DNA of 64,000 nt from a virus (lineage: Duplodnaviria > Heunggongvirae > Uroviricota > Caudoviricetes). The notes beneath the pieces are model-generated. The model had not been told where the DNA came from. It ran no database searches and was given only the letters and a program-made list of their open reading frames with translations. Made by a program: the position numbers and the translations under genes. The stretch lies in the IMG/VR virus record IMGVR_UViG_3300017560_000307. The stretch is one strand, 5' to 3'. Positions 6,323-64,000 of this stretch are shown one piece after another. The number at the start of each line of letters is the position of its first letter. Within the stretch, counting starts at the first letter, position 1.

Positions 6323-6714
6323 TGAGTGAATCCAAATTCAAGATCCGCACCAAGCGTATTTCCCTTGGCTTTCTCGGCAAGGCCTGGGAAGACGCGGACG
6401 CCTATATCGAGTCGCGTTTTCTAAGCATCCCGGATAGCCGCATCATCCAGAAGAAAGTTGCAACGGTTGGTGATGACGACACCAAAGCGATCGAAGAGAT
6501 GTCGTCTGTCATCAGCCAGTTGTTTGTCTCAGGGAAGACATTGGCTCATGACGGCACATTGGTGGACTTGGCTGCCGATGACATTGAGTTGGCCTTTGAC
6601 GCGTTGGCCATGCTCGAACTCTATGGACGCGTGCTGGGGAATCCTGACCCAAAAGCCTCGCAGCCCTCGACGACTACCACGCCGGTCGAGGCCACGAGCC
6701 AGCCAAGCGTCTAG
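6322..6714 (+). CDS. tail assembly chaperone (gpG-like)
   Basis: Positioned immediately upstream of the tape measure. A slippery heptamer lies 3-proximal with an open -1 frame beyond it. Confidence 0.6.
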   Translation: MSESKFKIRTKRISLGFLGKAWEDADAYIESRFLSIPDSRIIQKKVATVGDDDTKAIEEMSSVISQLFVSGKTLAHDGTLVDLAADDIELAFDALAMLELYGRVLGNPDPKASQPSTTTTPVEATSQPSV

Positions 6715-6926
6715 AGCAACGGTATCGGGCTATTTTCGGCCTCTCGATGGCCGAATTCGAGATTGAGCCGTCAGAGGAATTCCTTTACTGGGCAGCCGAT
6801 CAGGCCGCTGAGTACAAGGCAAAGGCTGAAGCGATGGAAATAATGCAGCAGAGACAGGAAGCGGAGAGTCGAGGACATAGCAGCAACCCGGCGCCGTTTA
6901 TCTCACCAGACCAGGAAGATATGTAG
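6322..6926 (+). CDS. tail assembly chaperone G-T fusion produced by programmed -1 frameshift
   Basis: CCCAAAA (X XXY YYZ) at 6648-6654 in the zero frame. The -1 frame stays open from 6648 to TAG 6924-6926, adding about 92 aa (…PKSLAALDDYHAGRG…PDQEDM). Confidence 0.5.
6648..6654 (+). promoter_or_regulatory. -1 ribosomal slippery heptamer CCCAAAA
   Basis: Zero-frame codons read gaC CCA AAA Gcc. This is the classic G/GT frameshift position. Confidence 0.5.
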
Positions 6927-6936
6927 TAGGAGGCAC

Positions 6937-9399
6937 GTGGCCCAGAACAAAGTCGAAATACAACTCAGCGCCGTTGATAACGCCACTTCCACCTTCAAGA
7001 GTGTAGGAAGTGGAATTAGTGAGCTCAGTGGCCGGATCCAGGAGCTCAAGAAGATCCAGCAGGATGCCGCGCGAAGTATCCTCACCGCTCCCGATACCTC
7101 TTCATGGCTGGAATCCAAGGCTGACTTGAAGAAAGTCACCGAGGACCTCTCTTTGGCAGAGAAGGAGCTGTCCGAGACAACAAAGAGCCTTGGCATCGCG
7201 CAGGACGGCACCGCGCAGTCTTCTTCATCCCTGTTCAAGACATTCACGGTGGGGACGTTGGCGGCGAATGCCATTCAAAAGGGGATCCAACTGGCGACTG
7301 ATGCCATCAAGGCCTCGATAGATGCTGCATCCAACTACGAACGCTCACTGATGGGTCTCAATTCCGCCGGTGCGGCCTTCGGATTTACTGCTAACCAGAT
7401 GAATGCAGCCATAAAGCAAGTCACAGACGATGGCCTACTCGGCTTCTCAACTGCCGCCGTGGCCCTCAAGACACTTCTATCCACCGGTATGGATATAGAT
7501 ACCGCCACAATGTTAATGGCTCGCTTCAAGGATGAAGCTGCGTTTGGTCGTAAGGAGACTCTGACCTATGGTCAAGCAGTGGAAAACCTGGCGCAAGCGT
7601 ATAAGACGCAGAGTTCCACCTTGGGTGATGCTGCTGGTCATACCGATAACTTCTCAAATGCTCTTGAAGTCGGTGCTGCCGCCCTCGGCAAAACCGTTGA
7701 GCAACTCACCGCTGCTGAGACAGAGCAGGCAAAGCTCATCGGCTACATGCAGCAAGGTGCTTATACTGCTGGCGATGCCGCTGTATATATGGATACCTAT
7801 GCAGGCTCAGTCGCTCGGATGGAAGCTGAAGGACAGAAAGCATCGGTTTCGTTGGGCCAAGTGCTTATGCCGGCCGTGGAGTTCACCACTGGGGCTTTTG
7901 CGGACATGCTGCAAAGTGTGAATAAATCAAGCAAAGGTATAGAGATATTCCAGGGGTCGCTCGTCACGATAGTTGCCATCGCCCAGACTGCGATTCAGGT
8001 CTTTGTCGGTCTTGGCCAGGCAATTATGGGGACAGTCCAGGCGATTCTGAGCCGGGATATGAATAAACTCAATGAGGGAATCAATCGCGCCACTCAAGGA
8101 TTCGTCAATATCTGGGAGAATTACGACACCCAGATGAAGAAGATCATGAATAGTGGGGCAGATGCCGCCGCCAATGCTCACAAAGAGTCACTTGATCGCA
8201 TGACTCAAGAAAACGGTGCCGCTTCAGTAAAGATGCAACAACAAATTGACGACGCCACTCGTCAATATCAACGTTCGATGGAGAGCCGTAATCGGTCATT
8301 CCAGGAATCAGTAAAAGACATGGTTATCGCGCACCGCGATAAGTCTCGATCCATTCAGTCGGATATTGCCAAGGAGCAGGCCGCTTACGACGCTGCCAAC
8401 CTCAAGCGCAAAGAGTCCTACGAGGATGACATCGCCTCCCTTGAAGAACGTCACCTGGACAAGGTCCAAGACATCGAGGCGCAAATTGCCGAAGAGCGTG
8501 AGAAGGGACTGGTAGTTGATGGAATTCTTTACCAGGAAGCCAATGAGAAAAAGATAGCCAAGCTGGAAGACCAACTGCGAAATGAGACAGAGACTTACCA
8601 GAAGTCAATAGATAAGCGAAAGGCCCAATACAGCGAAGATGTCTCCGCAGATAAGAAGCGGCATGACGAGAAGCTCTCACAGTTACAGATATCTCTCAAT
8701 GAAGAGCTAGTTATCCTCAACCGTCACCGCGCTGATGTGGCCCAGGTTGGTGAGGCGGTCAAGGAGGACGATCTTTCACGTCTCAAACGCAGCTTTGCCG
8801 AGCAGAACACTGAGGCCGCCCGCAACTACGCAGAACAGCTGGAGAGGATACGAAAGCAAGGTAACGAGTTGGGGATCAGTTATACCAACTCCATGAAGGA
8901 TGGCGTGAGTGCCGGATCTGATAAAGTCAAGGATCAGATTGCCTTCGATTTGAGGCGCGCTGTTTCATCCGGCGGGTTGGTCATTGGTGACGGTGGCAAG
9001 GCTGCAGCCGACACTTTTTGGACTAAATTCAATAAGAGCATCGGTGATGGTGTTGACGAGGCAGGAGAGGGGATAAAGCTCAACCTCGAAAAGGCGATCA
9101 AGTCTGGAGGGCTGGGTATTTCCGGTGGTGTGGATATCTCCAACATCATCTTTGGTGCTACCCCGCGCGCCGGTGGCGGTACCACACGCCCAGGCGAAAC
9201 CACACTGGTTGGCGAACGTGGGCCGGAAATCGCCCAGTTCCCGGCCGGCACCAGGATCATCCCGACCCAGCAAACCCGGCAGATCCTCTCCCAGCAACCT
9301 CAAGGGCGACAAACCACCGTCAATATCGGCACGGTCGTCAACCAAAGCAATATGGATCCCGACGCCTTTTTCAGCGCCCTGGCCTGGCAAATCAGATAG
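6937..9399 (+). CDS. tail tape measure protein
   Basis: 820 aa with a GTG start and SD AGGAGG. Long coiled-coil, Ala/Gln-rich sequence with a Gly-rich C-terminus. Follows the G/GT chaperone. Confidence 0.8.
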   Translation: MAQNKVEIQLSAVDNATSTFKSVGSGISELSGRIQELKKIQQDAARSILTAPDTSSWLESKADLKKVTEDLSLAEKELSETTKSLGIAQDGTAQSSSSLFKTFTVGTLAANAIQKGIQLATDAIKASIDAASNYERSLMGLNSAGAAFGFTANQMNAAIKQVTDDGLLGFSTAAVALKTLLSTGMDIDTATMLMARFKDEAAFGRKETLTYGQAVENLAQAYKTQSSTLGDAAGHTDNFSNALEVGAAALGKTVEQLTAAETEQAKLIGYMQQGAYTAGDAAVYMDTYAGSVARMEAEGQKASVSLGQVLMPAVEFTTGAFADMLQSVNKSSKGIEIFQGSLVTIVAIAQTAIQVFVGLGQAIMGTVQAILSRDMNKLNEGINRATQGFVNIWENYDTQMKKIMNSGADAAANAHKESLDRMTQENGAASVKMQQQIDDATRQYQRSMESRNRSFQESVKDMVIAHRDKSRSIQSDIAKEQAAYDAANLKRKESYEDDIASLEERHLDKVQDIEAQIAEEREKGLVVDGILYQEANEKKIAKLEDQLRNETETYQKSIDKRKAQYSEDVSADKKRHDEKLSQLQISLNEELVILNRHRADVAQVGEAVKEDDLSRLKRSFAEQNTEAARNYAEQLERIRKQGNELGISYTNSMKDGVSAGSDKVKDQIAFDLRRAVSSGGLVIGDGGKAAADTFWTKFNKSIGDGVDEAGEGIKLNLEKAIKSGGLGISGGVDISNIIFGATPRAGGGTTRPGETTLVGERGPEIAQFPAGTRIIPTQQTRQILSQQPQGRQTTVNIGTVVNQSNMDPDAFFSALAWQIR

Positions 9400-27864: not shown

Positions 27865-27937
27865 AGCGGGTTGGAGTAACAGTAACTCGGAAGGCTCATA
27901 ATCTTCGTCTATCTCGGTGCAAATCCGAGACCCGCAA
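27865..27937 (+). tRNA. tRNA-Met: tRNA-Met/Ile2 (CAT)
   Basis: Cloverleaf by hand. D-arm GAGT/ACTC, anticodon loop CTCATAA, T-arm CTCGG-TGCAAAT-CCGAG, CCA encoded. Mismatch at acceptor pair 1:72. Confidence 0.6.
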
Positions 27938-27946
27938 CCAATATAC

Positions 27947-28017
27947 CGACTGATGGCCGATTGGCTAGGCACGCGATTGCAAACCGTGGAATCCCCGTTC
28001 GATTCGGGGTCAGTCGT
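27947..28017 (+). tRNA. tRNA-Cys: tRNA-Cys (GCA)
   Basis: Acceptor CGACTGA/TCAGTCG, anticodon loop TTGCAAA, T-arm CCCCG-TTCGATT-CGGGG, CCA encoded. Short D-stem. Confidence 0.55.
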
Positions 28018-28021
28018 CCAT

Positions 28022-28094
28022 ACGCTCATAGCTCAGTGAATAGAGCAGTTGCCTTCGAAGCAGCAGGTCGGAGGTTTGAATCCTTCTGGGCGTA
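28022..28094 (+). tRNA. tRNA-Arg: tRNA-Arg (TCG)
   Basis: D-arm AGCTCAGTGAATAGAGC, anticodon loop CTTCGAA, T-loop TTTGAAT, CCA encoded. Confidence 0.65.
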
Positions 28095-28099
28095 CCAAT

Positions 28100-28172
28100 G
28101 CTTCCTTAGCTCATCAGGTAGAGCGGCGCACTTGTAATGCGCTGGTACGGGGTTCGAGTCCTCGAGGAAGCC
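28100..28172 (+). tRNA. tRNA-Thr: tRNA-Thr (TGT)
   Basis: Acceptor GCTTCCT/AGGAAGC, anticodon stem-loop GCGCA-CTTGTAA-TGCGC, T-loop TTCGAGT. Confidence 0.65.
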
Positions 28173-28176
28173 CCCT

Positions 28177-28250
28177 CTTGGCGTAGAGTAGCGGACGTAC
28201 TCGCTTCCCTTGGAAGGAAGAAATCGCTCGTTCGAATCGAGCCGCCTTGA
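28177..28250 (+). tRNA. tRNA-Pro: tRNA-Pro (TGG), acceptor stem with two U-U mismatches
   Basis: D-arm GAGT/ACTC, anticodon CTTCC-CTTGGAA-GGAAG, T-arm GCTCG-TTCGAAT-CGAGC, CCA encoded. Acceptor pairs 2:71 and 3:70 are mismatched, so it may be a pseudo-tRNA. Confidence 0.45.
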
Positions 28251-28254
28251 CCAT

Positions 28255-28326
28255 GGGTCTCTAGCACAACGATAGTGCAGCATCCCTGCAAGATGAAGGT
28301 TCTCAGTTTGAATCTGAGGAGATCCA
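28255..28326 (+). tRNA. tRNA-Ala: tRNA-Ala (TGC)
   Basis: Acceptor GGGTCTC/GAGATCC, D-arm GCAC/GTGC, anticodon loop CCTGCAA (C at position 33), T-arm CTCAG-TTTGAAT-CTGAG, CCA encoded. Confidence 0.5.
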
Positions 28327-28333
28327 CCAATTC

Positions 28334-28407
28334 GGGCTCGTCGCATAGCGGCCTATTGCAGCGGACTCTTAATCCGCCTTTCCCTGGTTCAAATCCAGGC
28401 GAGCTCA
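28334..28407 (+). tRNA. tRNA-Lys: tRNA-Lys (CTT)
   Basis: Anticodon stem-loop GCGGA-CTCTTAA-TCCGC, T-arm CCTGG-TTCAAAT-CCAGG, CCA encoded. Confidence 0.65.
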
Positions 28408-28414
28408 CCAGTTT

Positions 28415-28485
28415 GGGGATGTAGTGAAATGGCATCACGCTTGGTTTTCAACCAGGTATCCAGGGGTCAGAACCCTGCTTCCCTA
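28415..28485 (+). tRNA. tRNA-Glu: tRNA-Glu (TTC)
   Basis: D-arm GTGA/TCAC, anticodon CTTGG-TTTTCAA-CCAGG, T-arm CAGGG-GTCAGAA-CCCTG, CCA encoded. One acceptor mismatch. Confidence 0.5.
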
Positions 28486-28491
28486 CCATGT

Positions 28492-28564
28492 GTCCCTGTC
28501 GTCTAGAGGACCAGGACACCACCCTCTCAAGGTGGAAACCGGGGATCGTGACCCCGTGGGGATA
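28492..28564 (+). tRNA. tRNA-Glu: tRNA-Glu (CTC)
   Basis: Bacterial tRNA-Glu-like D-arm GTCTAGAGGACCAGGAC, anticodon CCACC-CTCTCAA-GGTGG, T-arm CGGGG-ATCGTGA-CCCCG, CCA encoded. Three G-U pairs in the acceptor. Confidence 0.5.
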
Positions 28565-28571
28565 CCAATAT

Positions 28572-28643
28572 GCCTTCCTAGCTCAGAGGCAGAGCAGCGT
28601 CTTTACACGGCGACGGTCGGGATTTCAAAATTCTCGGAGGGTA
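28572..28643 (+). tRNA. tRNA-Val: tRNA-Val (TAC)
   Basis: D-arm AGCTCAGAGGCAGAGC, anticodon loop TTTACAC, CCA encoded. Imperfect T-stem. Confidence 0.45.
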
Positions 28644-28650
28644 CCAGTGA

Positions 28651-28722
28651 CCCGTTGTGATGAAATTGGCATCATGCCTCCCTGTTAAGGAGAGATTCTA
28701 GGTTCAAATCCTAGCATCGGGG
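28651..28722 (+). tRNA. tRNA-Asn: tRNA-Asn (GTT)
   Basis: D-arm ATGA/TCAT, anticodon CCTCC-CTGTTAA-GGAGA, T-arm CTAGG-TTCAAAT-CCTAG, CCA encoded. Confidence 0.55.
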
Positions 28723-28728
28723 CCATAT

Positions 28729-28800
28729 ATCCGCGTAGCTCAAGGGACAGAGTGCCACTCTGCGAAGGTGATGATGCATGTTCGATTCATGCCGTGGATA
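28729..28800 (+). tRNA. tRNA-Arg: tRNA-Arg (GCG)
   Basis: Acceptor ATCCGCG/CGTGGAT, anticodon loop CTGCGAA, T-arm GCATG-TTCGATT-CATGC, CCA encoded. Confidence 0.5.
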
Positions 28801-28806
28801 CCATTT

Positions 28807-28878
28807 GCGATCATAGCTCAGTGGTAGAGCGCAGCCTTGTCACGGCTGAGGCCGGCGGATCGTTCCCGCCTGGTCGCG
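28807..28878 (+). tRNA. tRNA-Asp: tRNA-Asp (GTC)
   Basis: D-arm AGCTCAGTGGTAGAGC, anticodon CAGCC-TTGTCAC-GGCTG, T-arm GGCGG-ATCGTTC-CCGCC, CCA encoded. Confidence 0.65.
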
Positions 28879-29187
28879 CCAGTTTGGATTGGTTGACTTG
28901 TAAAGCAATATGTGTTCAAATCTTAGCCCCTGAACCAAGTCTTGGATTGGTGCTCCACAGATTTATGCCCCTCATGGGATATGTCGCACGCCCTTTGGTA
29001 ACGTCCACTCAAACATCCCATCATCAAGACATCTTTCCATCTTCCTGTCTTCCTGTCTTTCCATCTAAACATCAAAACGTTTTGCCTCCCATACATCTTG
29101 TCGTCAGTAATGCTTGCCATCCAGCAGGCAAAACAGCCTCCCTTTCCTTCCGATCCTCCGCCCCGCCCTATGTCTTTTTGACACATC

Positions 29188-51861: not shown

Positions 51862-52434
51862 ATGGAGAAACAAATCAGTGCGTATCAATTCATATCGATG
51901 TATGAGAATTTGGGTTATGACATCGGCCGACTCGGCTGCATCATGCTTGATATCGACCCGGAAGACCTGGGGAAGCGAGTCAGCGAGGCCATCAAGCCGG
52001 AGGAGGTCTATGTTGATGAAGATCCGGCCAGCTATGCCACGGGAATAGTTGCTGGAGAACCACACGTAACCTTGCTCTATGGCCTATTGCGAAGTGGTCC
52101 CGAGATGCAGAAGCACATATTGCAGGTGCTCAATAGCGGCAATGTGTGTCCGCCCACCGTGCAAATCGACGAGGTTGGCTATTTTGATAGTCCCAAGGCA
52201 GACGAACCCTACTACTGTATCGTCGCCCACCTTGTTATCACCCCGGAACTCCAGGAGTGTAACGAGCGTCTGAAGTTCCTCCCCCACATCAACACTTTCC
52301 CGGGCTATAAAGCGCATATGACCTTGGCCTATATCAAGGAAGATGAATTAGTTCGAGACAGGGTAATTGAGGAGCTAAATACCATGCTCCGCGGCCGACT
52401 ATTGCCCACCAAGGGGCTGAATTTCGGAAGCTGA
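51862..52434 (+). CDS. 2H phosphoesterase superfamily protein (LigT/ThpR-like)
   Basis: Two H-x-T-x motifs, EPHVTLLYGL and KAHMTLAYIK. Confidence 0.55.
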   Translation: MEKQISAYQFISMYENLGYDIGRLGCIMLDIDPEDLGKRVSEAIKPEEVYVDEDPASYATGIVAGEPHVTLLYGLLRSGPEMQKHILQVLNSGNVCPPTVQIDEVGYFDSPKADEPYYCIVAHLVITPELQECNERLKFLPHINTFPGYKAHMTLAYIKEDELVRDRVIEELNTMLRGRLLPTKGLNFGS

Positions 52435-55068: not shown

Positions 55069-55905
55069 GTGAACAGGCGCGAGCGTGGCGATCAGCTACA
55101 GGAGCAGCTTTCCGAGGCTATCACTGAGCTGGAACAACAGCTCAATGAAGGCCATACCGAGGGGTTTTTACGCCTCTTAGAATTTTATAGTCGGTTCCGC
55201 AAGTACTCCCCAGGTAACGTCATGTTGATCCTGATGCAGCGACCTGATGCATCATTGTGTGCTGGTTTCAGGCAGTGGGAGAAGCTCGGCTACCAGGTGC
55301 GAAAAGGTGAGTCTGCTGTATGGGTTCGGGGTCCGTACTTCAAGGATGTCACGGATCCAGAGACTGGAGAGGTTGAGAACCGTCTGATTGGCTGGCTTGC
55401 CTTGCCAATCTTTGATGTGTCTCAGCTCGAAGGCGATGTAGAGATTCCGTCGTTTACCCATCCACTGGAGGGTGACTACGATGGTCTGTACACCATGGCC
55501 CGGGTAGGAATCGGTGTCCAGGGAGTCCTGGTCATTGAGGATGACCTGCCCTCAACTATTCATGGTATGGCTTCAGGCGACAAAATCACTATCAACAGGA
55601 ATCTGTCTGACAGTGAGAAGTTCCTTTGCCTCCTCCATGAAGCGGCCCATATCGTACTCAAGCATTCAGAGCGGCATGAGGAGACCTCCAAGCAACAGAG
55701 AGAGTTGTGCGCGGAAGCCACAAGTTACCTGCTTGCCAAACTCTTCGGCCTCGATAACCCCTTCAGCAGGGATTACATCATTGCCTACAACGGAACCGTC
55801 GAAGCTCTGCATGAGAGCCTGAGTGAGATTCACCTGGCTGTGCGGAAGATATCCGGCTGGCTGGAGATTGAAGCTCCATCACAGGAGCAATCAATCGCCG
55901 CCTAG
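55069..55905 (+). CDS. ArdC-like antirestriction protein (N-terminal ssDNA-binding domain + C-terminal HExxH metalloprotease)
   Basis: YSPGNVMLI is an ArdC-N-like motif. LHEAAHIVLKH is a zinc-protease motif. Confidence 0.55.
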   Translation: MNRRERGDQLQEQLSEAITELEQQLNEGHTEGFLRLLEFYSRFRKYSPGNVMLILMQRPDASLCAGFRQWEKLGYQVRKGESAVWVRGPYFKDVTDPETGEVENRLIGWLALPIFDVSQLEGDVEIPSFTHPLEGDYDGLYTMARVGIGVQGVLVIEDDLPSTIHGMASGDKITINRNLSDSEKFLCLLHEAAHIVLKHSERHEETSKQQRELCAEATSYLLAKLFGLDNPFSRDYIIAYNGTVEALHESLSEIHLAVRKISGWLEIEAPSQEQSIAA

Positions 55906-58634: not shown

Positions 58635-58949
58635 GTGTGGCGGATCGCCCCGGTTGCCCTTTCTCCATACCAGAAAGGAGACGCTGACATGTACGAGCAG
58701 GCTATTCAGCAACTGAAGGCCCGCCGCCCGGTCATGTTGGATCTCAAGGAGGGAGTCACTCCTTCTCAGGCTTTTGAAGTCGCTGACGCGATTGAAAAGG
58801 CACTCGGCATGACGCTGGAACGTCGAATGGTGGTAACCGCCGCTCGACACGCATTGGTGTTGTGGGCAGCCGGGCTTTGTCCCGACCCCTTCGCCAACTC
58901 GCTGTTAGGAGACAGGATCCATGCAAGACGAGATCATCCAGCAGCTTAG
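58635..58949 (+). CDS. hypothetical protein (likely start ATG about 58689)
   Basis: SD AAAGGAGACG. Confidence 0.4.
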   Translation: MWRIAPVALSPYQKGDADMYEQAIQQLKARRPVMLDLKEGVTPSQAFEVADAIEKALGMTLERRMVVTAARHALVLWAAGLCPDPFANSLLGDRIHARRDHPAA

Positions 58950-59340
58950 ACAACATCTCACTGAGATGACGTTGCTGGTCGATACCCTGGAATTCGTAGG
59001 TGATGACACACCTTCAGATTCACCACCAGACGAGCCGACTCCACCACCTGCACCTGTAGTTGGTAAAGGAGAGATTTCGCTCACTGGTGTTGTAGGCCGA
59101 CCAAGATTCCAGCAACCAAGAGGCAGGAGCCTTTGGACCGCTGGTCTTCGAGTTGGTCAAGGAGCTGATGCGGTATGGCACAACATCCAAGCGTGGGGAT
59201 CACCGGCAGAGCTTGCCCGAGACCTCGTGCGTCGCGGAGAGACAATCACCGTCGTCGGCAAGGAGAAGGACAACAGCTACGTGAACGCGGACGGCGTGAT
59301 GGTCGAACAGACCGTCGTTGTCGTCAGTCACTTCGCTTAG
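58921..59340 (+). CDS. SSB-like OB-fold single-stranded DNA-binding protein
   Basis: ISLTGVVGRPRF…WHNIQAWGSPAELARDLVRRGETITVVGKEK resembles an SSB OB-fold, preceded by an acidic Pro-rich N-terminus. Confidence 0.45.
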   Translation: MQDEIIQQLRQHLTEMTLLVDTLEFVGDDTPSDSPPDEPTPPPAPVVGKGEISLTGVVGRPRFQQPRGRSLWTAGLRVGQGADAVWHNIQAWGSPAELARDLVRRGETITVVGKEKDNSYVNADGVMVEQTVVVVSHFA

Positions 59341-59678
59341 GCAATACGTGCTTCTTCTGCGGAAGGTCTGTGCGTAAGGGCAAAAACACCTCCAAGCATC
59401 ACATTATGCCCAAGAGGTATGGAAGAGAGACCATCCTGCACCTGGCGTGCAACACATGTCATCAACGATGGCATCGAGAGATCGACAATCCACAGCTGGA
59501 CTTCATCTACTACGCGGTAGTGATGATTCTGGTCAACTGGGGTCGGGGAATTTACTCCCCGGCCCTTTTTCTTTGGATGAGTGTGCGAATATCTCACCTA
59601 TTGACAACGATACATAATAGATGTATAAGTAAGATGTACATACAAAAATACATAGAATGCTTGGGCAGTGAGAGGTAA
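59175..59678 (+). CDS. HNH endonuclease-like protein (C-terminal 100 aa); start uncertain, ORF overlaps the SSB-like gene
   Basis: CFFCGRSV…HHIMPKRYGRETILHLACNTCHQRWH. Confidence 0.4.
   Translation: MAQHPSVGITGRACPRPRASRRDNHRRRQGEGQQLRERGRRDGRTDRRCRQSLRLGNTCFFCGRSVRKGKNTSKHHIMPKRYGRETILHLACNTCHQRWHREIDNPQLDFIYYAVVMILVNWGRGIYSPALFLWMSVRISHLLTTIHNRCISKMYIQKYIECLGSER
59601..59629 (+). promoter_or_regulatory. sigma70-type promoter, family copy (TTGACA-N17-TATAAG) driving the tRNA-like array and Ro60 operon
   Basis: CTATTGACAACGATACATAATAGATGTATAAGTAAGATGTAC. Confidence 0.55.
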
Positions 59679-60190
59679 GGGTTACTTCGCTGATCTTTGG
59701 TGATCAACAACACTTGAAATGTTGCCTATACTGGTTCGATTCCAGTCGATGTCCGCAAGGATGTTTCCACCCTCCTCACCTTCCTCCCAGGCATTTGAAA
59801 ACACTTCACTCAGGTAGTGAGGGGTAGGGTTACTTCGGATGTTAACCGAGAGGTCGCAGGTTCGAGTCCTGTCTGGACGAAAGTTCAGTAGCTCAGTTGG
59901 TTAGAGCGCTTTTACACTCTCCCCACCTTTCTCCTGAGTGTTTGAAATCACAGCCCAGCGGGCAGTGAGAGATTGGGTTACTTCGCTTTTAACGACGTTG
60001 TCGTTGGTTCGAATCCAACTGGGGCCACCTAGGGCCCCATAGCTCAGTGGTAGAGCACGTACATTTCCCACCTCGGTTTTCTCCCGCTGGACTGATATTC
60101 GGTGACTACCCTTCATCTTCGGATGAGGCGACTTAATACCTCTCAACTTTCTCCCAAGGAGTTGAGGGGTAGCTATCGAATACCCACTAA
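59660..60190 (+). ncRNA. array of four tRNA-like / Y-RNA-like modules (candidate YrlA-type Ro60-binding RNAs)
   Basis: Units at about 59660-59760, 59790-59880, 59881-60030 and 60031-60190. Each carries a box GTGAGRGGTWGGGTTACTTCG (three exact GGGTTACTTCG copies), a TTTGAAAHCAC element, and a T-arm-like GGTTCGA(A/T/G)TCC. Units 3 and 4 start with canonical tRNA acceptor plus D-arm (AGCTCAGTTGGTTAGAGC, AGCTCAGTGGTAGAGC) but lack an anticodon arm and a matching 3-prime acceptor. Confidence 0.45.
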
Positions 60191-60216
60191 TCACTATTAC
60201 CTTTCGTAGGAGGCAC

Positions 60217-61698
60217 ATGTCACGTTTCAATTCCACAACAGTCGGCACCCGCACCACAAATTTTGCAGGCGGTCGCGCATACAAGGAGGATGCGAAGCTT
60301 GAAATAGCCTCCATTCTTCTGAATTCATTTGTCACAGACCAATACTACCGATCAGCTGACAACACTATGAGGCGTCTCGTCGAATTGATTGAAACCCTGC
60401 CGGATAAGCGCTTCGCTGCTCAGGCTGCTCTCTTCGCCCGAACCAAGTACAATCTGCGCTCGATTAGCCACGTGGCCGCCGGTGAGGTTGCCCGACTGGT
60501 CAAGGGTGAGCAATGGACCAAGCGATTCTTCGCCGCAGTTGTCCAGCGCCCTGATGACGCCACAGAGATCCTTTCCTACTACACAACCAAATACGGCAAG
60601 CCGATTCCGAACTCTCTAAAGAAGGGATTGGCAGCTGGTTTGACCAAGTTTGACGGCTACCAGCTGGCTAAATACCGGGGTGAAGACAAAACGTTGTCGC
60701 TCATTGACCTGGTTAACATCACCCACCCGGTTCCGTCAGCCAAGAATACTGAGGCGCTCAAACAACTCATTGAGGGCACACTAAAGAACACCGACACCTG
60801 GGAAGCCAAACTGACTGAGGCTGGAAAGTCGGCCGAGTCCGATGAGGACAAGGCGGATCTGAAGGCTGAGGCCTGGGCTGAACTGATTACCAACCGCAAG
60901 CTCGGTTACATGGCTACATTGCGTAACCTAAGGAATTTGGTTGAACAGGTAAAAGACGAGAGCGTCATCAAGCAGGCGCTAGAAACCCTGGCCGACCCAA
61001 ACCAGGTTCGTCGCTCCCGTGTCCTGCCATTCCGCTTCTACACCGCGTATCAGCAGATGAGTCAGGTCTCCGGCGCCAATAAGGTCTTGAAGGCCCTGTC
61101 CACCGCACTCGACCATTCCGTCGGAAATCTGCCCGAGATGCCAGGAAAGACGTTGGTTGTGATCGATCACTCCGGCTCAATGGACAGCCGTATGAGTGGC
61201 AACTCCCAGGCAACGATGTTCCAGACTGGAGCCCTGCTGGGTGTGTCCCTGGCTAAGTCTCAGGACGCCGATCTGATTTACTTTGGTGACACTGCCCGCT
61301 ATTTCACCTTCAACCCGGCCGACAGCATCTTGAGCATCATGATGGCTCTTGAGGAGGCCAATCGCTGGGGCGGTGCTACAAGCGTTGGCCACGGCACCAA
61401 CTTTGAAGCTGCCTTCAATACGGCGACCAAAGCATACGACCGCATCGTTATCTTCTCTGATATGCAGGGTTGGATGGGCTATCGCACACCAACCACAGCC
61501 TTCAACGCGTATAAGAAGCGCACCGGGGCAAACCCAACAGTCTTCTCAGTCGACCTGGCCGGCTACGGCACACTGCAATTCCCTGAGGATCGCGTATTCT
61601 GCCTGGCAGGGTTCAGTGAAAAGACGCTGGAGTTATTACCCAAGCTCGAAGTTGACAAGAACGCGCTGGTTCATGAGATTGAGGAGGTGGAGGTATGA
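60217..61698 (+). CDS. rsr: Ro60-related protein (TROVE domain + C-terminal vWA/MIDAS), Rsr ortholog
   Basis: The N-terminus FAGGRAYKEDAKLE…KRFAAQAALFARTKYNLRSISHVAAGEV aligns with the Ro60 TROVE pattern. C-terminal MIDAS motif VVIDHSGSMDS…IVIFSDMQG. SD GTAGGAGG. Confidence 0.75.
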   Translation: MSRFNSTTVGTRTTNFAGGRAYKEDAKLEIASILLNSFVTDQYYRSADNTMRRLVELIETLPDKRFAAQAALFARTKYNLRSISHVAAGEVARLVKGEQWTKRFFAAVVQRPDDATEILSYYTTKYGKPIPNSLKKGLAAGLTKFDGYQLAKYRGEDKTLSLIDLVNITHPVPSAKNTEALKQLIEGTLKNTDTWEAKLTEAGKSAESDEDKADLKAEAWAELITNRKLGYMATLRNLRNLVEQVKDESVIKQALETLADPNQVRRSRVLPFRFYTAYQQMSQVSGANKVLKALSTALDHSVGNLPEMPGKTLVVIDHSGSMDSRMSGNSQATMFQTGALLGVSLAKSQDADLIYFGDTARYFTFNPADSILSIMMALEEANRWGGATSVGHGTNFEAAFNTATKAYDRIVIFSDMQGWMGYRTPTTAFNAYKKRTGANPTVFSVDLAGYGTLQFPEDRVFCLAGFSEKTLELLPKLEVDKNALVHEIEEVEV

Positions 61699-62369
61699 AC
61701 CCCATCCCTTTTATCCTCCTCAACTTCGCCGGTATTCTCACCCTCTGGGTGTATATCTACCGTCTGGAGAGTAAACAGAATCACCTGCTCAACCGGAAAT
61801 CCCCAGAGTTCCCAGACCTACGCAAACCCTTCATAGATCTGCAGGAGCGCATCACCTCCGAAGCTGAAGAGACTCGTAGTCAGTCATCCAGTCATGCCAA
61901 GAACAATCAGACAGCAGTGAAGATGCTAACCGGGGTGGTGAAGAAACTTCCGTTGGCCGACGAATTGGCCGGAGTCATCTCCACAGAAGCCACTTCAGTC
62001 GTTGAGGCCACCCAGTCGAATATCCAGGAAGACGGCCAGAAGACGAGGGATGCCATTGCGGCCGAACACAAGAAGACCCGGGAACGCATCGCCCAGGTAA
62101 AGACCCGAATGGCGGATGATGAGAAGGACGATCAGAAGGACAAAGCCAAGGTTCGACGCACTAAGGCGGCTCAAAAGCGTATCGCAGAAGCCCTGGATGC
62201 TGGTGCCAAGGTGAATGTCACCACCGACCCATCACTTCCCGAGGGCACTATGGTCCTTCGAGATGAAGAGACTGGTGATCAGGTAACGATCACTGGAGTC
62301 ACCGTGGAAGGCATCAAGGAAGTAGCCAAGAAGACAACACAGAAGAAGAAGCGTAAGACTTCCAAGTAG
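61695..62369 (+). CDS. membrane-anchored coiled-coil protein (Lys-rich C-terminus)
   Basis: N-terminal TM IPFILLNFAGILTLWVYIY. ATGA overlap with rsr. Confidence 0.45.
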   Translation: MNPIPFILLNFAGILTLWVYIYRLESKQNHLLNRKSPEFPDLRKPFIDLQERITSEAEETRSQSSSHAKNNQTAVKMLTGVVKKLPLADELAGVISTEATSVVEATQSNIQEDGQKTRDAIAAEHKKTRERIAQVKTRMADDEKDDQKDKAKVRRTKAAQKRIAEALDAGAKVNVTTDPSLPEGTMVLRDEETGDQVTITGVTVEGIKEVAKKTTQKKKRKTSK

Positions 62370-62432
62370 GATAAAGGTGTACGTTTACGTTTCATGTGAA
62401 ACATTAGGCAATCAGTATTTAGTAGGAGGTAT

Positions 62433-63707
62433 ATGAAGTTACAGGCACCAGAGAACGCAAACTACGCCGCAGTCGTCGTGAAAATTACTGCCATCAATCA
62501 ACTTGAGGGATCCGACAACATCGTCGGTACTCCACTTATCGGATTCCAGGCCATCGTTGGCAAGAGCACCCAGGTAGGGGATATTGGCATTGTCTTCCCG
62601 GCGGAAACCCAGCTAAGTGATGAGTTTTGTCGAGAAAATAGTCTTTACCGACACAGTGACAAGAATAAGGACCAGAGCGCCAAAGGCTACCTGGAAGATA
62701 ATCGCCGGGTAAAAGCCATGAAGTTCCGCGGCAACCGCTCTGACTGCCTCTTTATGCCCTTGAACTCACTGGAATTCACCGGCGCAAAGGTGAAAGAACT
62801 CCAGGTTGGTGATACTTTCGATGAACTGAATGGTCACAAGCTGTGCGAGAAATACGAAATTAAGCGTCGATCGAGCGGGAACGCTAATCTGGTAAAGAAA
62901 CCCCGATTTGTCCGCGTAGATGCTAAGTTCCTTCCCGAACACCTGGACTCCGATAACTTCTTCCGCAATGTCGACCGAATCCTGCCAGGTACTCAGGTGG
63001 TGGTCACCCAAAAGTTGCATGGGACAAGCTCACGCATCGGCCATACGATTGTCACCCGAAAACTAAACATCTTAGAGAAGGCTCTGAAGCGTCTAGGACT
63101 ACGCATCGAGACTCATGAGTACGATTATGTGTTTGGATCCCGAAAGGTCATCAAGGACGTTCACAACCCCGATGGTGGATTCTATTCGTCCGACATCTGG
63201 ACTGAATCAGGCCAGCGTCTGGAGGGCATTCTGCCCCAGAACTTCATCCTCTATGGTGAGTTGGTAGGGTACACCCCTGATGGTGGAGACATCCAGAAGG
63301 GATATCACTACGGCCAACCGATGGGAGTCAATGAGCTTTACATTTACCGCGTCGCATTCATCAACAATCAGGGGCGTCTGACTGATCTCTCCTGGGACCA
63401 GGTGAGGTTATTTTGCGAAGAGCTTGGGCTGAAGCATGTACCAGAACTGTGGCGTGGCAAGATCGATGAGTTCGACGTCCAGGCATTCATGGATCGCCAC
63501 TATGCCGAGACTGGATACACCCACGCAATCCCGCTAGATGACAACGGTACGGTTGACGAGGGTGTTTGTATCCGGGTTGATGGTCTTACTCCTTATATTC
63601 TAAAAGCCAAGAGCCCAGAATTCTTGAGTTTTGAGTCGAAGATGCTGGATGAGGAAGCAACAGATCTCGAGGCAGAGCAGTCTCAAAGCGAGGAGGCCAA
63701 TGTCTGA
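62433..63707 (+). CDS. ATP-dependent RNA ligase of the Rnl2/Rnl5 (DraRnl-like) type with N-terminal extension
   Basis: Motif I KLHGTS (KxHG as in T4 Rnl2), motif IV-like LYGELVGY, motif V ILKAKSPEF. An N-terminal module of about 190 aa precedes the nucleotidyltransferase domain. Confidence 0.55.
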   Translation: MKLQAPENANYAAVVVKITAINQLEGSDNIVGTPLIGFQAIVGKSTQVGDIGIVFPAETQLSDEFCRENSLYRHSDKNKDQSAKGYLEDNRRVKAMKFRGNRSDCLFMPLNSLEFTGAKVKELQVGDTFDELNGHKLCEKYEIKRRSSGNANLVKKPRFVRVDAKFLPEHLDSDNFFRNVDRILPGTQVVVTQKLHGTSSRIGHTIVTRKLNILEKALKRLGLRIETHEYDYVFGSRKVIKDVHNPDGGFYSSDIWTESGQRLEGILPQNFILYGELVGYTPDGGDIQKGYHYGQPMGVNELYIYRVAFINNQGRLTDLSWDQVRLFCEELGLKHVPELWRGKIDEFDVQAFMDRHYAETGYTHAIPLDDNGTVDEGVCIRVDGLTPYILKAKSPEFLSFESKMLDEEATDLEAEQSQSEEANV

Positions 63708-64000
63708 GGTACAAATTTTAAAGGGCTTGCCTGCCAGTGGAAAAACAACCTACGCTCGTCAGCAAGTCGAAGCCAATCCCGGACAAACAAAACGCTGGTC
63801 AAAAGACGATATCCGCGCCATGTTAGATGGTGGTCGCTGGAGCCGATCCAACGAGAGGTTTGTATTGGACCTGCGTGATCAAGTTATTCGGCAGGCGCTG
63901 AAGAACAATACCCACCTCATAATTGACGACACTAATCTTGCGAGCAAGCACGAAGCGCGTATCCGTCACCTGGTTTCCGAAATCAACAAGCTGGAAGGTA
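63700..64000 (+). CDS. polynucleotide kinase (T4 Pnk-like P-loop kinase domain), 5-prime partial in window (continues past the end)
   Basis: ATG 63700 overlaps the ligase stop. GLPASGKTT Walker A, then NPGQ…DDIR and IIDDTNL, resembling the T4 Pnk kinase domain. Confidence 0.6.
   Translation, partial: MSEVQILKGLPASGKTTYARQQVEANPGQTKRWSKDDIRAMLDGGRWSRSNERFVLDLRDQVIRQALKNNTHLIIDDTNLASKHEARIRHLVSEINKLEG

What the first reader, a model, noticed from the sequence alone, without database searches (positions are those of the whole stretch)
59601..64000. Phage-borne Ro60 (Rsr) – tRNA-like RNA array – RNA ligase – polynucleotide kinase operon
A single plus-strand transcription unit starts at a strong promoter at 59601. 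It encodes four tandem tRNA-like/Y-RNA-like modules, a Ro60/TROVE+vWA protein, a membrane coiled-coil protein, an Rnl2/Rnl5-type RNA ligase and a T4-Pnk-like kinase. In Deinococcus and Salmonella, Rsr binds Y RNAs, and in Salmonella it sits in an operon with the RtcB RNA ligase. Here the RtcB slot is taken by a Pnk plus ATP-dependent Rnl pair, the T4-style countermeasure to anticodon nucleases. The locus also lies in a genome that carries 13 tRNAs. This architecture suggests a phage RNA-surveillance or tRNA-repair module scaffolded by Ro60 and Y-like RNA.
Basis: partly seen in the sequence, partly recalled or inferred. Interest (0 to 1): 0.9.

Follow-up and report, generated by a model that had tools for sequence, protein, structure and literature searches.

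The report
Phage Ro60–Y RNA cassette beside RNA-repair genes
A bacteriophage carries three tRNA-mimicking Y RNAs and a Ro60 RNA-binding protein in one transcription unit with an RNA ligase and an RNA end-healing kinase-phosphatase, a rare but recurring variant of known bacterial RNA-repair operons that probably protects RNA from host nucleases during infection.

Summary
The observation largely holds. A repeated phage promoter motif (TTGACA-N17-TATAAG, 59601-59629) follows a strong terminator. After it come three, not four, Y-RNA-like modules, then Ro60 (TROVE+vWA), a small N-terminally hydrophobic protein, an Rnl5-type RNA ligase and a T4-type bifunctional Pnkp. An identical contig completes the Pnkp beyond the window.

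Modules M2 and M3 are YrlA-type: a circularly permuted tRNA core inside a Ro-stem. M1 is a tRNA body in the same stem. The "fourth module" is only a long hairpin.

The RNA fold is supported by covariation across phage Ro60 loci. These modules lie upstream of Ro60 in about 50 phage loci.

The Ro60-Rnl-Pnkp adjacency is rare. It is absent from about 50 Ro60 loci and most of about 70 Rnl loci. It recurs independently in Nocardia-type prophages (L157, L207, L208) and as a Ro60 remnant in L152.

The closest syntenic relatives show that the promoter, Y RNAs and Ro60 form an exchangeable cassette inserted upstream of a conserved ORF224-Rnl-Pnkp backbone. One relative lacks the cassette. Another has homologous Y-like RNAs followed by an unannotated 633-aa protein instead of Ro60.

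Verdict: a real new variant of the Ro60/Y-RNA plus RNA-repair theme. Physical cooperation between the two parts is inferred, not shown.

The parts
59539..59576 (+). Intrinsic terminator closing the upstream SSB/HNH unit (11-bp stem, 8 GC pairs, T-rich tail)
59601..59629 (+). Promoter TTGACA-N17-TATAAG, a repeated phage promoter motif
   Evidence: Five exact plus-strand copies in the window against 0.2 expected. The same motif heads the homologous cassette in L217 and recurs after the operon in L020.
59656..59795 (+). Y-RNA-like module M1. Closing stem AUGCUUGGG/CCCAGGCAU, 5' motif GCAGUGAGAGGUAAGGGUUACUUCG. The cargo is a tRNA body (D-like arm, anticodon-like arm with loop CUUGAAA, T arm) followed by a GCAA hairpin.
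   Evidence: MFE -48.9 kcal/mol, z -3.3. Rfam tRNA 21.9 bits, below cut-off. R1 16.2 bits, E 0.003. Same architecture as L021 4035-4165.
59807..59940 (+). Y-RNA-like module M2, YrlA type. Stem CACUCAGG/CCUGAGUG, motif UAGUGAG, S2 helix, UUAC, 5-bp/7-nt hairpin (loop AUGUUAA), AGGUC, T arm, closed acceptor-like stem, D arm.
   Evidence: Rfam YrlA 42.3 bits, E 9e-8 at 59849-59910. R1 118.7 bits. Covariation on A3.
59955..60090 (+). Y-RNA-like module M3, YrlA type. Stem CCAGCGGG/CCCGCUGG, hairpin loop CUUUUAA.
   Evidence: Rfam YrlA 40.5 bits, E 3e-7 at 59995-60061. R1 97.7 bits. MFE z -3.4.
60096..60182 (+). Long imperfect hairpin between the Y RNAs and the Ro60 ribosome-binding site. It is not a member of the module family. 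It may be a processing or stability element.
   Evidence: MFE -36.9 kcal/mol, z -2.3. No R1 hit at E<=10. A role in processing is inference.
60217..61698 (+). Ro60/Rsr ortholog (493 aa): TROVE ring plus vWA domain with MIDAS motif DHSGS at residue 317
61695..62369 (+). 224-aa protein with one N-terminal hydrophobic segment and a highly charged remainder. It belongs to the conserved backbone with Rnl-Pnkp: homologs lie directly upstream of Rnl in L220 (48% identity) and L217 (34%).
62433..63707 (+). ATP-dependent RNA ligase, Rnl5 type (N-terminal OB domain plus C-terminal nucleotidyltransferase). Motif I is KLHG with K194.
   Evidence: AF2 model pLDDT 83.6; the top PDB matches are Naegleria gruberi RNA ligase, E 4e-16, full length.
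63700..64000 (+). Polynucleotide kinase-phosphatase (Pnkp), first 100 codons. Its start overlaps the Rnl stop by 8 nt. The full protein is 298 aa on the identical contig L020 (8348-9244): P-loop GLPASGKT and phosphatase motif DLDGT.
   Evidence: PDB Pnkp1 4xrp 6e-44 and T4 Pnkp 1ltq 4e-25 over the full length.
59175..59678 (+). HNH endonuclease ORF at the upstream border of the cassette (HNH domain about 59349-59492). It may be a mobility factor.
   Evidence: A mobility role is inference.

Best explanation
This is a phage RNA-damage-response operon of about 5.6-6 kb. It is made of two units.

(i) An exchangeable cassette. It holds a phage promoter, three Y RNAs whose Ro-binding stems carry tRNA-mimic cores, and a Ro60 ring protein.

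(ii) A conserved backbone. It encodes a small membrane-anchored protein, an Rnl5-type nick-sealing RNA ligase and a T4-type Pnkp.

Proposed mechanism:
- Host ribonucleases such as anticodon nucleases or other ribotoxins leave 2',3'-cyclic-phosphate and 5'-OH ends in tRNAs or other structured RNAs.
- Pnkp converts these to 3'-OH and 5'-phosphate ends.
- Rnl5 seals nicks held together in a duplex context.
- The Ro60/Y-RNA particle binds damaged or misfolded RNAs. Through the tRNA-like Y-RNA domain it either engages tRNA-recognising factors or tethers a host exonuclease such as PNPase. This would triage RNAs for repair or removal.

Shown: the identity and intactness of all parts, their co-orientation and tight spacing, the shared promoter class, the conserved RNA fold, and recurrence of the Ro60-Rnl-Pnkp linkage.

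Inferred: co-transcription, RNA processing into discrete Y RNAs, Ro60 binding, the substrates, and any physical cooperation between Ro60/Y RNA and the repair enzymes.
For: Components:
- Ro60.
- Rnl5.
- Pnkp with both domains.

Operon signals:
- Terminator, then promoter.
- The Ro60 stop overlaps the ORF224 start (ATGA), and the Rnl stop overlaps the Pnkp start.
- TAGGAGG ribosome-binding sites precede Ro60 and Rnl.
- The next terminators and promoter come only after Pnkp and a 91-aa ORF.

Y RNAs:
- Partial Rfam YrlA hits.
- Tandem arrays carrying the shared UAC(U/C)UC motif lie upstream of Ro60 in nearly all of about 50 phage Ro60 loci examined.
- In a 14-sequence alignment, 89% of cells are paired and 21 of 29 pairs show compensatory change. 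The covariation score is 0.567 against 0.19 when shuffled.
- The covariance model finds full-length hits above 50 bits next to Ro60 in about 30 loci.

Linkage:
- Rnl-Pnkp is adjacent in at least 25 of 28 viral loci.
- Ro60-Rnl-Pnkp recurs in L157, together with a metallophosphoesterase and three Y modules.
- It also recurs in the Nocardia genomes L207 and L208.
- In L152 it survives as a Ro60 C-terminal remnant abutting Rnl.

Literature:
- Ro60/YrlA occur in bacteria and phages (PMC4201824).
- Phage Ro60 binds Y-like RNAs and host PNPase (PMC12135203).
- rsr-yrlBA-rtcBA is an RNA-repair operon (PMC7790460).
- ROT/TROVE is described as an RNA-repair RNP platform in jumbo phages (PMC7824862).
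Against: - About 50 other phage Ro60 loci have no Rnl or Pnkp within 5-10 kb.
- Most of about 70 Rnl loci have no Ro60.
- The closest syntenic relative, L220, keeps ORF224-Rnl-Pnkp with no Ro60 or Y RNAs. L217 has a non-Ro60 protein in the slot. The repair pair therefore works without Ro60.
- There are no expression, binding or activity data.
- The Y RNAs fall below Rfam's YrlA gathering score (42 and 40 bits against 69). They carry a variant (GYAGUGAGRG) of the published GNCGAAN0-1G motif.
Confidence: 0.6

Rival explanations
1. Two independent modules lie side by side by chance. The Ro60/Y-RNA cassette, perhaps moved by the flanking HNH endonuclease, landed in a variable slot upstream of a self-sufficient ORF224-Rnl-Pnkp tRNA-repair module. 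Ro60/Y RNA acts separately, for example by hijacking host PNPase for RNA degradation as proposed for Thermus phage phiLo. It has no functional link to ligation.
For: - L220 has the backbone without the cassette, and L217 has a different protein in the slot.
- The cassette has its own terminator and promoter.
- Most Ro60 loci lack Rnl/Pnkp and most Rnl loci lack Ro60.
- phiLo Ro60/Yrl binds host PNPase (PMC12135203).
Against: - The same adjacency arose in a distant lineage: Nocardia-type prophages, whose Ro60 is only about 29% identical. It also left a remnant in L152.
- No terminator was found between Ro60 and Rnl.
- In Salmonella, Ro60/Y RNA is likewise operonic with an RNA ligase (PMC7790460).
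Confidence: 0.3
2. The Y RNAs are tRNA decoys. Their 5-bp/7-nt hairpins imitate anticodon stem-loops (GUU, UUU and UGA triplets here). They would bait anticodon nucleases or other tRNA-targeting defence proteins. Ro60 would stabilise the baits, and Pnkp/Rnl would reseal the cleaved baits or the cleaved tRNAs.
For: - In 19 canonical YrlA-type modules the hairpin loop has U at position 2 (19/19), a purine at position 6 (19/19) and A at position 7 (17/19). There are 12 different middle triplets, and an AGGUC-like linker follows.
- The covariance model core also matches anticodon arm, T arm, acceptor stem and D arm across real tRNA-tRNA junctions.
Against: - The same features are expected as relics if YrlA arose from dimeric tRNA transcripts, a published proposal cited in bioRxiv 10.1101/312249.
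- Published YrlA models treat this hairpin as a variable arm.
- There is no evidence that any nuclease recognises it.
- Some modules have non-canonical loops.
Confidence: 0.07
3. The upstream RNAs are ordinary or decayed tRNA genes unrelated to Ro60.
For: ARAGORN calls a 'tRNA-???' at 59663-59756 and a 'tRNA-Asn' at 59806-59881.
Against: - Rfam tRNA scores are 17.9-21.9 bits, below the cut-off of 29.
- There are no proper acceptor stems and no encoded CCA, whereas nearly all 13 genuine phage tRNAs end in CCA.
- M2 and M3 have the permuted order T arm, closed stem, D arm.
- The conserved flanking stems and motifs are shared with modules upstream of Ro60 in dozens of phages.
Confidence: 0.03

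Closest known systems
Salmonella Typhimurium rsr-yrlBA-rtcBA RNA repair operon (PMC4201824, PMC7790460)
   Same: A Ro60 ortholog and tRNA-mimicking Y RNAs are encoded in one unit with an RNA ligase and an RNA end-modifying enzyme. The YrlA-type core has the same order: T arm, closed acceptor-like stem, D arm.
   Different: - The ligase is an ATP-dependent Rnl5 plus a Pnkp that heals ends to 3'-OH/5'-phosphate. In Salmonella it is RtcB (3'-phosphate/5'-OH chemistry) plus the RtcA cyclase.
- A sigma70-like phage promoter replaces RtcR/sigma54 control.
- The Y RNAs precede Ro60.
- There are three modules, with two cargo topologies.
- The context is a phage, not a chromosome.
Phage Ro60/Y-like RNA loci (mycobacteriophages and others in PMC4201824; Thermus phage phiLo, PMC12135203, PDB 9KOP/9L5Y)
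   Same: A phage-encoded Ro60 with Y-like RNAs immediately upstream on the same strand. The best solved-structure match of this Ro60 is phiLo Ro60 (E 1.7e-30).
   Different: In the phage loci examined, Ro60 usually sits in or beside tRNA arrays and has no ligase or kinase nearby. Here the tRNA array is 31 kb away, and Rnl5/Pnkp follow directly.
T4 Pnkp + Rnl tRNA repair, and the mycobacteriophage cluster E (Porky/Cjw1-type) Pnk + RNA ligase pair
   Same: A bifunctional kinase-phosphatase of T4 type (1ltq, 4e-25 over the full length) is paired with an ATP-dependent RNA ligase. Porky gp87 (Pnk) and gp90 (ligase, 48% identical) show the same pairing.
   Different: The ligase is Rnl5-type (OB+NTase, NgrRnl fold), not T4 Rnl1 or Rnl2. 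Here the pair is preceded by a Ro60/Y-RNA cassette and a conserved small membrane protein.
Bacterial Pnkp1-Rnl-Hen1 repair complex (PMC4411300, PDB 4XRP)
   Same: The closest solved relative of this Pnkp is Pnkp1 (E 6e-44). Both are stand-alone healing enzymes partnered with a separate ligase.
   Different: No Hen1 methyltransferase was found, and the ligase belongs to a different family.
Nocardia-type prophage loci L157, L207, L208 (public genomes, unannotated here)
   Same: The order is Y-like modules, Ro60, 1-2 genes, Rnl5, Pnkp, all on one strand.
   Different: Their Ro60 is only about 29% identical to this one. L157 has a calcineurin-like phosphoesterase between Ro60 and Rnl, and there is no ORF224 homolog.

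Membership tests
Ro60 / Rsr (TROVE + vWA) | TROVE (HEAT-repeat ring) domain | tested here: met
   Pfam PF05731 E 9e-23, 81.6 bits against cut-off 23. PHROG 850 E 1.6e-45 over residues 1-479.
Ro60 / Rsr (TROVE + vWA) | C-terminal vWA domain with MIDAS motif | tested here: met
   PF25045 vWA_Ro60 E 1.1e-8. DHSGS at residue 317.
Ro60 / Rsr (TROVE + vWA) | Full-length similarity to a solved Ro60 | tested here: met
   phiLo Ro60 9L5Y/9KOP E 1.7e-30 over residues 10-483; D. radiodurans Rsr 2NVO E 1e-9.
Ro60 / Rsr (TROVE + vWA) | Binds Y RNA and misfolded RNA ends | not testable with these tools
   Needs RIP or EMSA.
YrlA-type bacterial/phage Y RNA (Rfam RF02553; PMC4201824) | Score at or above the Rfam gathering threshold | tested here: not met
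   42.3 and 40.5 bits against 69. Only model positions 23-86 match, with E 9e-8 and 3e-7. No Rfam YrlA hit at gathering in 14 other phage Ro60 loci either.
YrlA-type bacterial/phage Y RNA (Rfam RF02553; PMC4201824) | Encoded within 4 kb of Ro60 on the same strand | tested here: met
   Modules end 127-560 nt upstream of the Ro60 start, on the plus strand.
YrlA-type bacterial/phage Y RNA (Rfam RF02553; PMC4201824) | T arm, closed acceptor-like stem and D arm in that order, with a conserved tRNA elbow sequence | tested here: met
   Met for M2 and M3. The helices covary. M1 has a different order (D, anticodon arm, T).
YrlA-type bacterial/phage Y RNA (Rfam RF02553; PMC4201824) | Conserved YUAY before the V region, and the 5' GNCGAAN0-1G motif | tested here: inconclusive
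   UUAC is present in all three modules. The 5' motif is GCAGUGAGAG or GUAGUGAGGG, a GYG..AG variant of the GGCGUAG/GUGCGAAG forms seen in other phage modules. It is not a literal GNCGAA.
YrlA-type bacterial/phage Y RNA (Rfam RF02553; PMC4201824) | Long terminal stem formed by the 5' and 3' ends | tested here: met
   The three paralogous modules have different but complementary closing stems. Perfect 7-bp closures occur in 40% of 132 modules against 9.5% of shuffled controls.
Rnl5 (NgrRnl/DraRnl) ATP-dependent nick-sealing RNA ligase | N-terminal OB-like domain fused to a C-terminal nucleotidyltransferase domain | tested here: met
   PF21189 (weak) plus PF09414. The AF2 model aligns over about 410-420 columns to NgrRnl 5COT/6VT1, E 4e-16, TM 0.74-0.75. 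T4 Rnl2 and REL1 match only the NTase domain, at about 1e-8.
Rnl5 (NgrRnl/DraRnl) ATP-dependent nick-sealing RNA ligase | Covalent nucleotidyltransferase motifs, including the motif I lysine | tested here: met
   KLHG (K194), E276, DEGVCIR and LKAKS are invariant in alignments.
Rnl5 (NgrRnl/DraRnl) ATP-dependent nick-sealing RNA ligase | Seals 3'-OH/5'-phosphate nicks with an RNA 3'-OH strand | not testable with these tools
   Needs a biochemical assay.
T4-type polynucleotide kinase-phosphatase (Pnkp) | N-terminal P-loop 5'-kinase | tested here: met
   GLPASGKT; AAA_33 E 4.6e-13; PHROG 505.
T4-type polynucleotide kinase-phosphatase (Pnkp) | C-terminal DxDxT HAD 3'-phosphatase | tested here: met
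   Seen on the identical contig L020, beyond the window end: HAD_PNKP and the DLDGT motif in the 298-aa sequence. Full-length match to T4 Pnkp 1LTQ (4e-25) and Pnkp1 4XRP (6e-44).
rsr-yrl-rtcBA type RNA repair operon | RtcB ligase, RtcA cyclase and RtcR/sigma54 control | tested here: not met
   No RtcB or RtcA was found in the operon. The promoter is of sigma70 type. The locus works like this operon but is not a member of it.

The most novel reading that the evidence does not exclude
Y-RNA-like arrays in these phages may be portable RNA scaffolds that pair with interchangeable proteins. In this window the partner is Ro60. In the closest syntenic relative (L217), and in an unrelated phage (L221), homologous RNAs carry the same GCAGUGAGA...GGGUUACUU 5' motif and a YrlA-type core. 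There they precede a roughly 630-aa protein built of helical repeats plus a TerD-like beta-sandwich. That family has at least 1750 members, no annotation, and no detectable homology to Ro60. If this protein is a second, unrecognised Y-RNA-binding partner, the cassette in either form may feed damaged RNAs to the adjacent membrane-tethered Rnl5/Pnkp repair pair. That would define a new RNP class and a physical link between RNA surveillance and RNA repair in phages.
Probability: 0.2. Interest if true: 0.8.

Novelty: new variant of a known kind. Interest (0 to 1): 0.55.

Why it matters
What Ro60/Y-RNA particles do in bacteria and phages is still poorly understood. The best genetic clue so far is their operon with the RtcB ligase in Salmonella.

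Here the same RNP is linked to the chemically opposite repair route: Pnkp healing plus ATP-dependent Rnl5 sealing. The link arose independently in two distant phage lineages. This argues that the association is with RNA repair as such, not with one enzyme.

It also offers a compact, testable system. One promoter drives three Y RNAs and four or five proteins. Such a system could show whether Ro60/Y RNA selects, protects or presents broken tRNAs during the arms race with anticodon nucleases.

The exchangeable cassette, and the unannotated protein family in the Ro60 slot, give natural swap controls.

Tried and rejected
- Megablast of the locus against 50,697 phage records found no match.
- The closest Ro60 relatives (49% identity: the 634-kb phage LR745206 and IMG/VR loci L004-L018) have neither Rnl/Pnkp nor Rfam YrlA hits. 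They carry only simple UACUUC modules.
- Rfam at gathering threshold reports no YrlA in the window or in 14 related loci.
- A single-sequence Rnl scan of IMG/VR found nothing. An alignment-based scan was needed.
- A PDB sequence search with Rnl gave no hit, or only a weak T4 Rnl2 hit. Fold search was needed.
- The fourth-module hypothesis is rejected. The element contains UACCUC and UUUCUCC strings, but its fold differs and the covariance model gives no hit.
- The modules are not copies of the phage's own tRNAs. Only generic D- and T-arm similarity was found.
- A first pattern scan (GGTTACTTCG...GTTCGA) returned many chance matches and had to be filtered by Ro60 presence.
- MAFFT could not register the terminal stems. 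S1 was therefore tested separately in Python with a permissive null and was left out of the covariance model.
- The comparative-genomics paper most likely to have catalogued TROVE/RNA-ligase contexts (Burroughs & Aravind 2016, recalled from memory) could not be retrieved. Prior description of this exact arrangement therefore cannot be excluded.

Full report
**1. What is in the sequence**

The window is from a tailed phage. It encodes a DNA polymerase, an endolysin, a minor tail protein and an ArdC-like anti-restriction protein, and a 13-gene tRNA array at 27865-28881.

At the flagged locus an SSB-like gene (58921-59340) and an HNH endonuclease ORF (59175-59678) come first. An 11-bp GC-rich terminator follows at 59539-59566. 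Then comes TTGACA-N17-TATAAG at 59601-59629. This exact motif occurs five times in the window, always on the plus strand, against 0.2 expected by chance. It occurs once more after the operon on the extended contig. It is therefore a genuine repeated promoter class of this phage.

**2. Proteins**

- ORF 60217-61698 is a Ro60/Rsr ortholog. Pfam gives TROVE 9e-23 and vWA_Ro60 1e-8, and it matches PHROG 850. A MIDAS motif DHSGS is present. The best solved relative is Thermus phage phiLo Ro60, E 1.7e-30 over the full length.
- Its stop overlaps the start of a 224-aa ORF (61695-62369). This ORF has no family match. It has one N-terminal hydrophobic segment and a 36% charged remainder.
- ORF 62433-63707 is an ATP-dependent RNA ligase. 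It matches PF09414, a weak PHA02142 OB domain and PHROG 968 at 1e-102, and its motif I is KLHG.
  - An AlphaFold model (pLDDT 83.6) matches Naegleria gruberi RNA ligase over its whole length, E 4e-16, TM 0.74-0.75.
  - T4 Rnl2 and REL1 match only the catalytic domain, at about 1e-8.
  - It is therefore Rnl5-type.
- The last ORF starts 8 nt before the ligase stop and is cut by the window end. It carries a P-loop and matches AAA_33 and PHROG 505.
  - An identical metagenomic contig (L020) completes it to 298 aa with a HAD_PNKP domain and a DLDGT motif.
  - It aligns over its full length to T4 Pnkp (4e-25) and to Pnkp1 (6e-44).
- After it come a 91-aa ORF, about 550 nt without ORFs or Rfam matches, two terminator-like hairpins and the next copy of the promoter motif.
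- The transcription unit is thus about 5.6-6 kb. Co-transcription is inferred from spacing and signals; it has not been measured.

**3. RNAs**

*Module count.* Between promoter and Ro60 lie three modules, not four. They span 59656-59795, 59807-59940 and 59955-60090.

*Shared architecture.*
- A closing stem that differs in sequence but stays complementary: AUGCUUGGG/CCCAGGCAU, CACUCAGG/CCUGAGUG and CCAGCGGG/CCCGCUGG.
- A 5' motif G(C/U)AGUGAG(A/G)G.
- A second helix.
- An invariant GGGUUACUUCG.
- A 3' strand ending in UU(U/C)CUCC.

*Types.* M2 and M3 contain a hairpin, an AGGUC-like linker, a T arm, a closed acceptor-like stem and a D arm. Rfam's YrlA model matches this core with E 9e-8 and 3e-7, but below its gathering score. 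M1 has a tRNA body in normal order (D-like arm, anticodon-like arm, T arm) plus a GCAA hairpin. The same arrangement occurs in L021.

*They are not real tRNAs.* Rfam tRNA scores are 17.9-21.9 bits, below the cut-off of 29. The modules do not encode CCA, whereas nearly all 13 real phage tRNAs do.

*The fourth element.* It spans 60096-60182 and is a long hairpin. The family model does not recognise it.

**4. The RNA family**

- Scanning viral contigs and phage records showed that nearly every one of about 50 phage Ro60 loci has 2-6 tandem modules upstream carrying the shared UAC(U/C)UC motif. Cargoes vary: none, T arm only, YrlA-type or tRNA-body.
- On a 14-module alignment, 89% of cells are paired, against 70% shuffled and about 45% slid. 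Compensatory changes occur in 21 of 29 pairs. The covariation score is 0.567 against 0.19.
- The resulting covariance model scores M2 at 118.7 bits, M3 at 97.7 bits and M1 at 16.2 bits. It finds full-length hits above 50 bits beside Ro60 in about 30 other loci, including the annotated phages Atuin, BRock and csAssE-Sib.
- The same model also hits real tRNA-tRNA junctions in the window's tRNA array, at 46 bits over model positions 28-105.
- The first hairpin has the signature of an anticodon loop. It has a 5-bp stem and a 7-nt loop, with U at position 2 and a purine at position 6 in 19 of 19 cases, and 12 different middle triplets.
- This fits the published idea that YrlA arose from dimeric tRNA transcripts (bioRxiv 10.1101/312249). 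It could also hint at mimicry of specific anticodon arms. The second reading is speculative.

**5. Is the Ro60-ligase-kinase linkage meaningful?**

*Rnl and Pnkp are a tight pair.*
- They are adjacent in at least 25 of 28 viral loci.
- They are adjacent in many metagenome and genome loci.
- They are also paired in mycobacteriophage Porky.

*Ro60 is usually elsewhere.* It typically sits inside or beside tRNA arrays with no ligase near.

*But Ro60-Rnl-Pnkp recurs.*
- In L157 the order is three Y modules, Ro60, a 122-aa ORF, a calcineurin-like phosphoesterase, Rnl and Pnkp.
- It recurs in two Nocardia genomes, L207 and L208.
- It recurs in L152. There a Y-module 5' half and the last roughly 35 codons of Ro60 abut the Rnl start, a deletion scar of the same arrangement.

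*The closest relatives reveal a cassette.* These relatives have Rnl 75-77% identical.
- The backbone is SSB, a slot, an ORF224 homolog, Rnl, Pnkp and a roughly 90-aa ORF.
- It is conserved in L220 with an empty slot.
- In L217 the slot holds the same promoter (79% nucleotide identity to 59599-59684), Y-like RNAs (66 bits) and a 633-aa protein that is not a recognisable Ro60.
- So promoter, Y RNAs and Ro60 form an exchangeable cassette, while ORF224 belongs with the repair pair.
- L217 and L218 add RlaP and a CCA-adding enzyme to the repair cluster.

**6. Interpretation**

The best-supported reading is an RNA-damage-response operon. It combines a Ro60/Y-RNA surveillance particle with a heal-and-seal pair, Pnkp and Rnl5. 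It is analogous to rsr-yrlBA-rtcBA in Salmonella (PMC7790460) but uses the opposite end chemistry. It also fits the published view of TROVE proteins as RNA-repair platforms in some jumbo phages (PMC7824862).

The main rival is that two independent modules were juxtaposed by cassette insertion. The independent recurrence of the linkage in distant lineages argues against pure chance. The backbone clearly functions without Ro60. I put 0.6 on functional cooperation in one pathway and 0.3 on independence.

**7. Novelty**

Already described:
- Phage Ro60 with Y-like RNAs.
- The Pnkp plus ligase pair.
- The Ro60/ligase operon theme.

In the searchable literature I found no description of Ro60/Y RNA in an operon with Rnl5 and Pnkp. 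One key survey could not be read. I therefore class this as a new variant of a known kind.

**8. Side finding**

The 633-aa protein in the Ro60 slot of L217 belongs to a family of at least 1750 unannotated proteins. A second member in an unrelated phage (L221) again follows a terminator, a promoter, a module starting GGCAGUGAGAUAAGGGUUACUUUG and a YrlA-type core of 69 bits.

Noticed in passing
L217 5249-7150 (Logan SRR22405840_6482); L221 5001-6926: A roughly 630-aa protein family (at least 1750 members, no Pfam, PHROG or PDB sequence match) occupies the Ro60 slot. It lies downstream of Y-RNA-like modules that share the window's 5' motif and a YrlA-type core. The AF2 model shows a helical-repeat domain plus a TerD-like beta-sandwich, with no detectable homology to Ro60.
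   Followed up: partly
L152 7300-7464 (IMGVR_UViG_3300047546_002261): The last roughly 35 codons of a Ro60 gene are fused to the 5' half of a Y-RNA module. They lie directly upstream of Rnl-Pnkp. This is a deletion scar of a former Ro60-Rnl-Pnkp arrangement.
   Followed up: partly
L014, L015, L017 about 6465-7171: In three related viral contigs the Ro60 reading frame is interrupted by an insertion of about 700 bp between residues about 154 and 158. It may be an intron, an intein or a homing element.
   Followed up: no
window 23926, 47597, 50230, 56694, 59601 (all + strand): Five exact copies of TTGACA-N17-TATAAG (0.2 expected), often as TTGACATA...GCGTATAAG. This is a phage-specific promoter class that marks the boundaries of transcription units.
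   Followed up: partly
window 51862-52434 (+): A 190-aa ORF with two HxT motifs (HVTL at 68, HMTL at 152) and a near-threshold 2',5' RNA ligase/LigT match. It is a 2H phosphoesterase, a likely cyclic-phosphodiesterase accessory to RNA repair, about 7 kb upstream of the operon.
   Followed up: partly
window 28048-28125, 28656-28789, 28181-28311, 28361-28442: The Y-RNA covariance model also matches junctions between adjacent genuine tRNA genes: anticodon arm and T arm of one, paired acceptor strands, D arm of the next. This illustrates the proposed dimeric-tRNA origin of YrlA. It is also a source of false positives.
   Followed up: yes
window 59663-59756 and 59806-59881: ARAGORN calls a 'tRNA-???' and a 'tRNA-Asn(gtt)' inside Y-RNA modules M1 and M2. 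Similar miscalls may exist next to Ro60 in annotated phage genomes.
   Followed up: yes
L144 (Arthrobacter phage Atuin) 6899-7329; L145 (Streptomyces phage BRock) 4377-4862: Strong Y-RNA model hits (64-69 bits) lie in unannotated gaps beside the annotated Ro-like genes of isolated phages. Their Ro60 genes sit inside large tRNA arrays.
   Followed up: no
L020 9510-10060 (window-equivalent about 64860-65410, beyond the window): About 550 nt without ORFs downstream of the 91-aa ORF that follows Pnkp. There is no Rfam match. It ends in a 12-bp hairpin. Its function is unknown.
   Followed up: partly
L217 11007-12453; L218 9280-10005: Close relatives extend the Rnl-Pnkp cluster with an RlaP nucleotidyltransferase and a CCA-adding enzyme. 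Whether the window's phage carries these further downstream could not be checked.
   Followed up: no
window 55069-55905 (+): An ArdC-like anti-restriction protein with a metalloprotease region lies about 4 kb upstream. This places the operon in an early anti-defence region.
   Followed up: no
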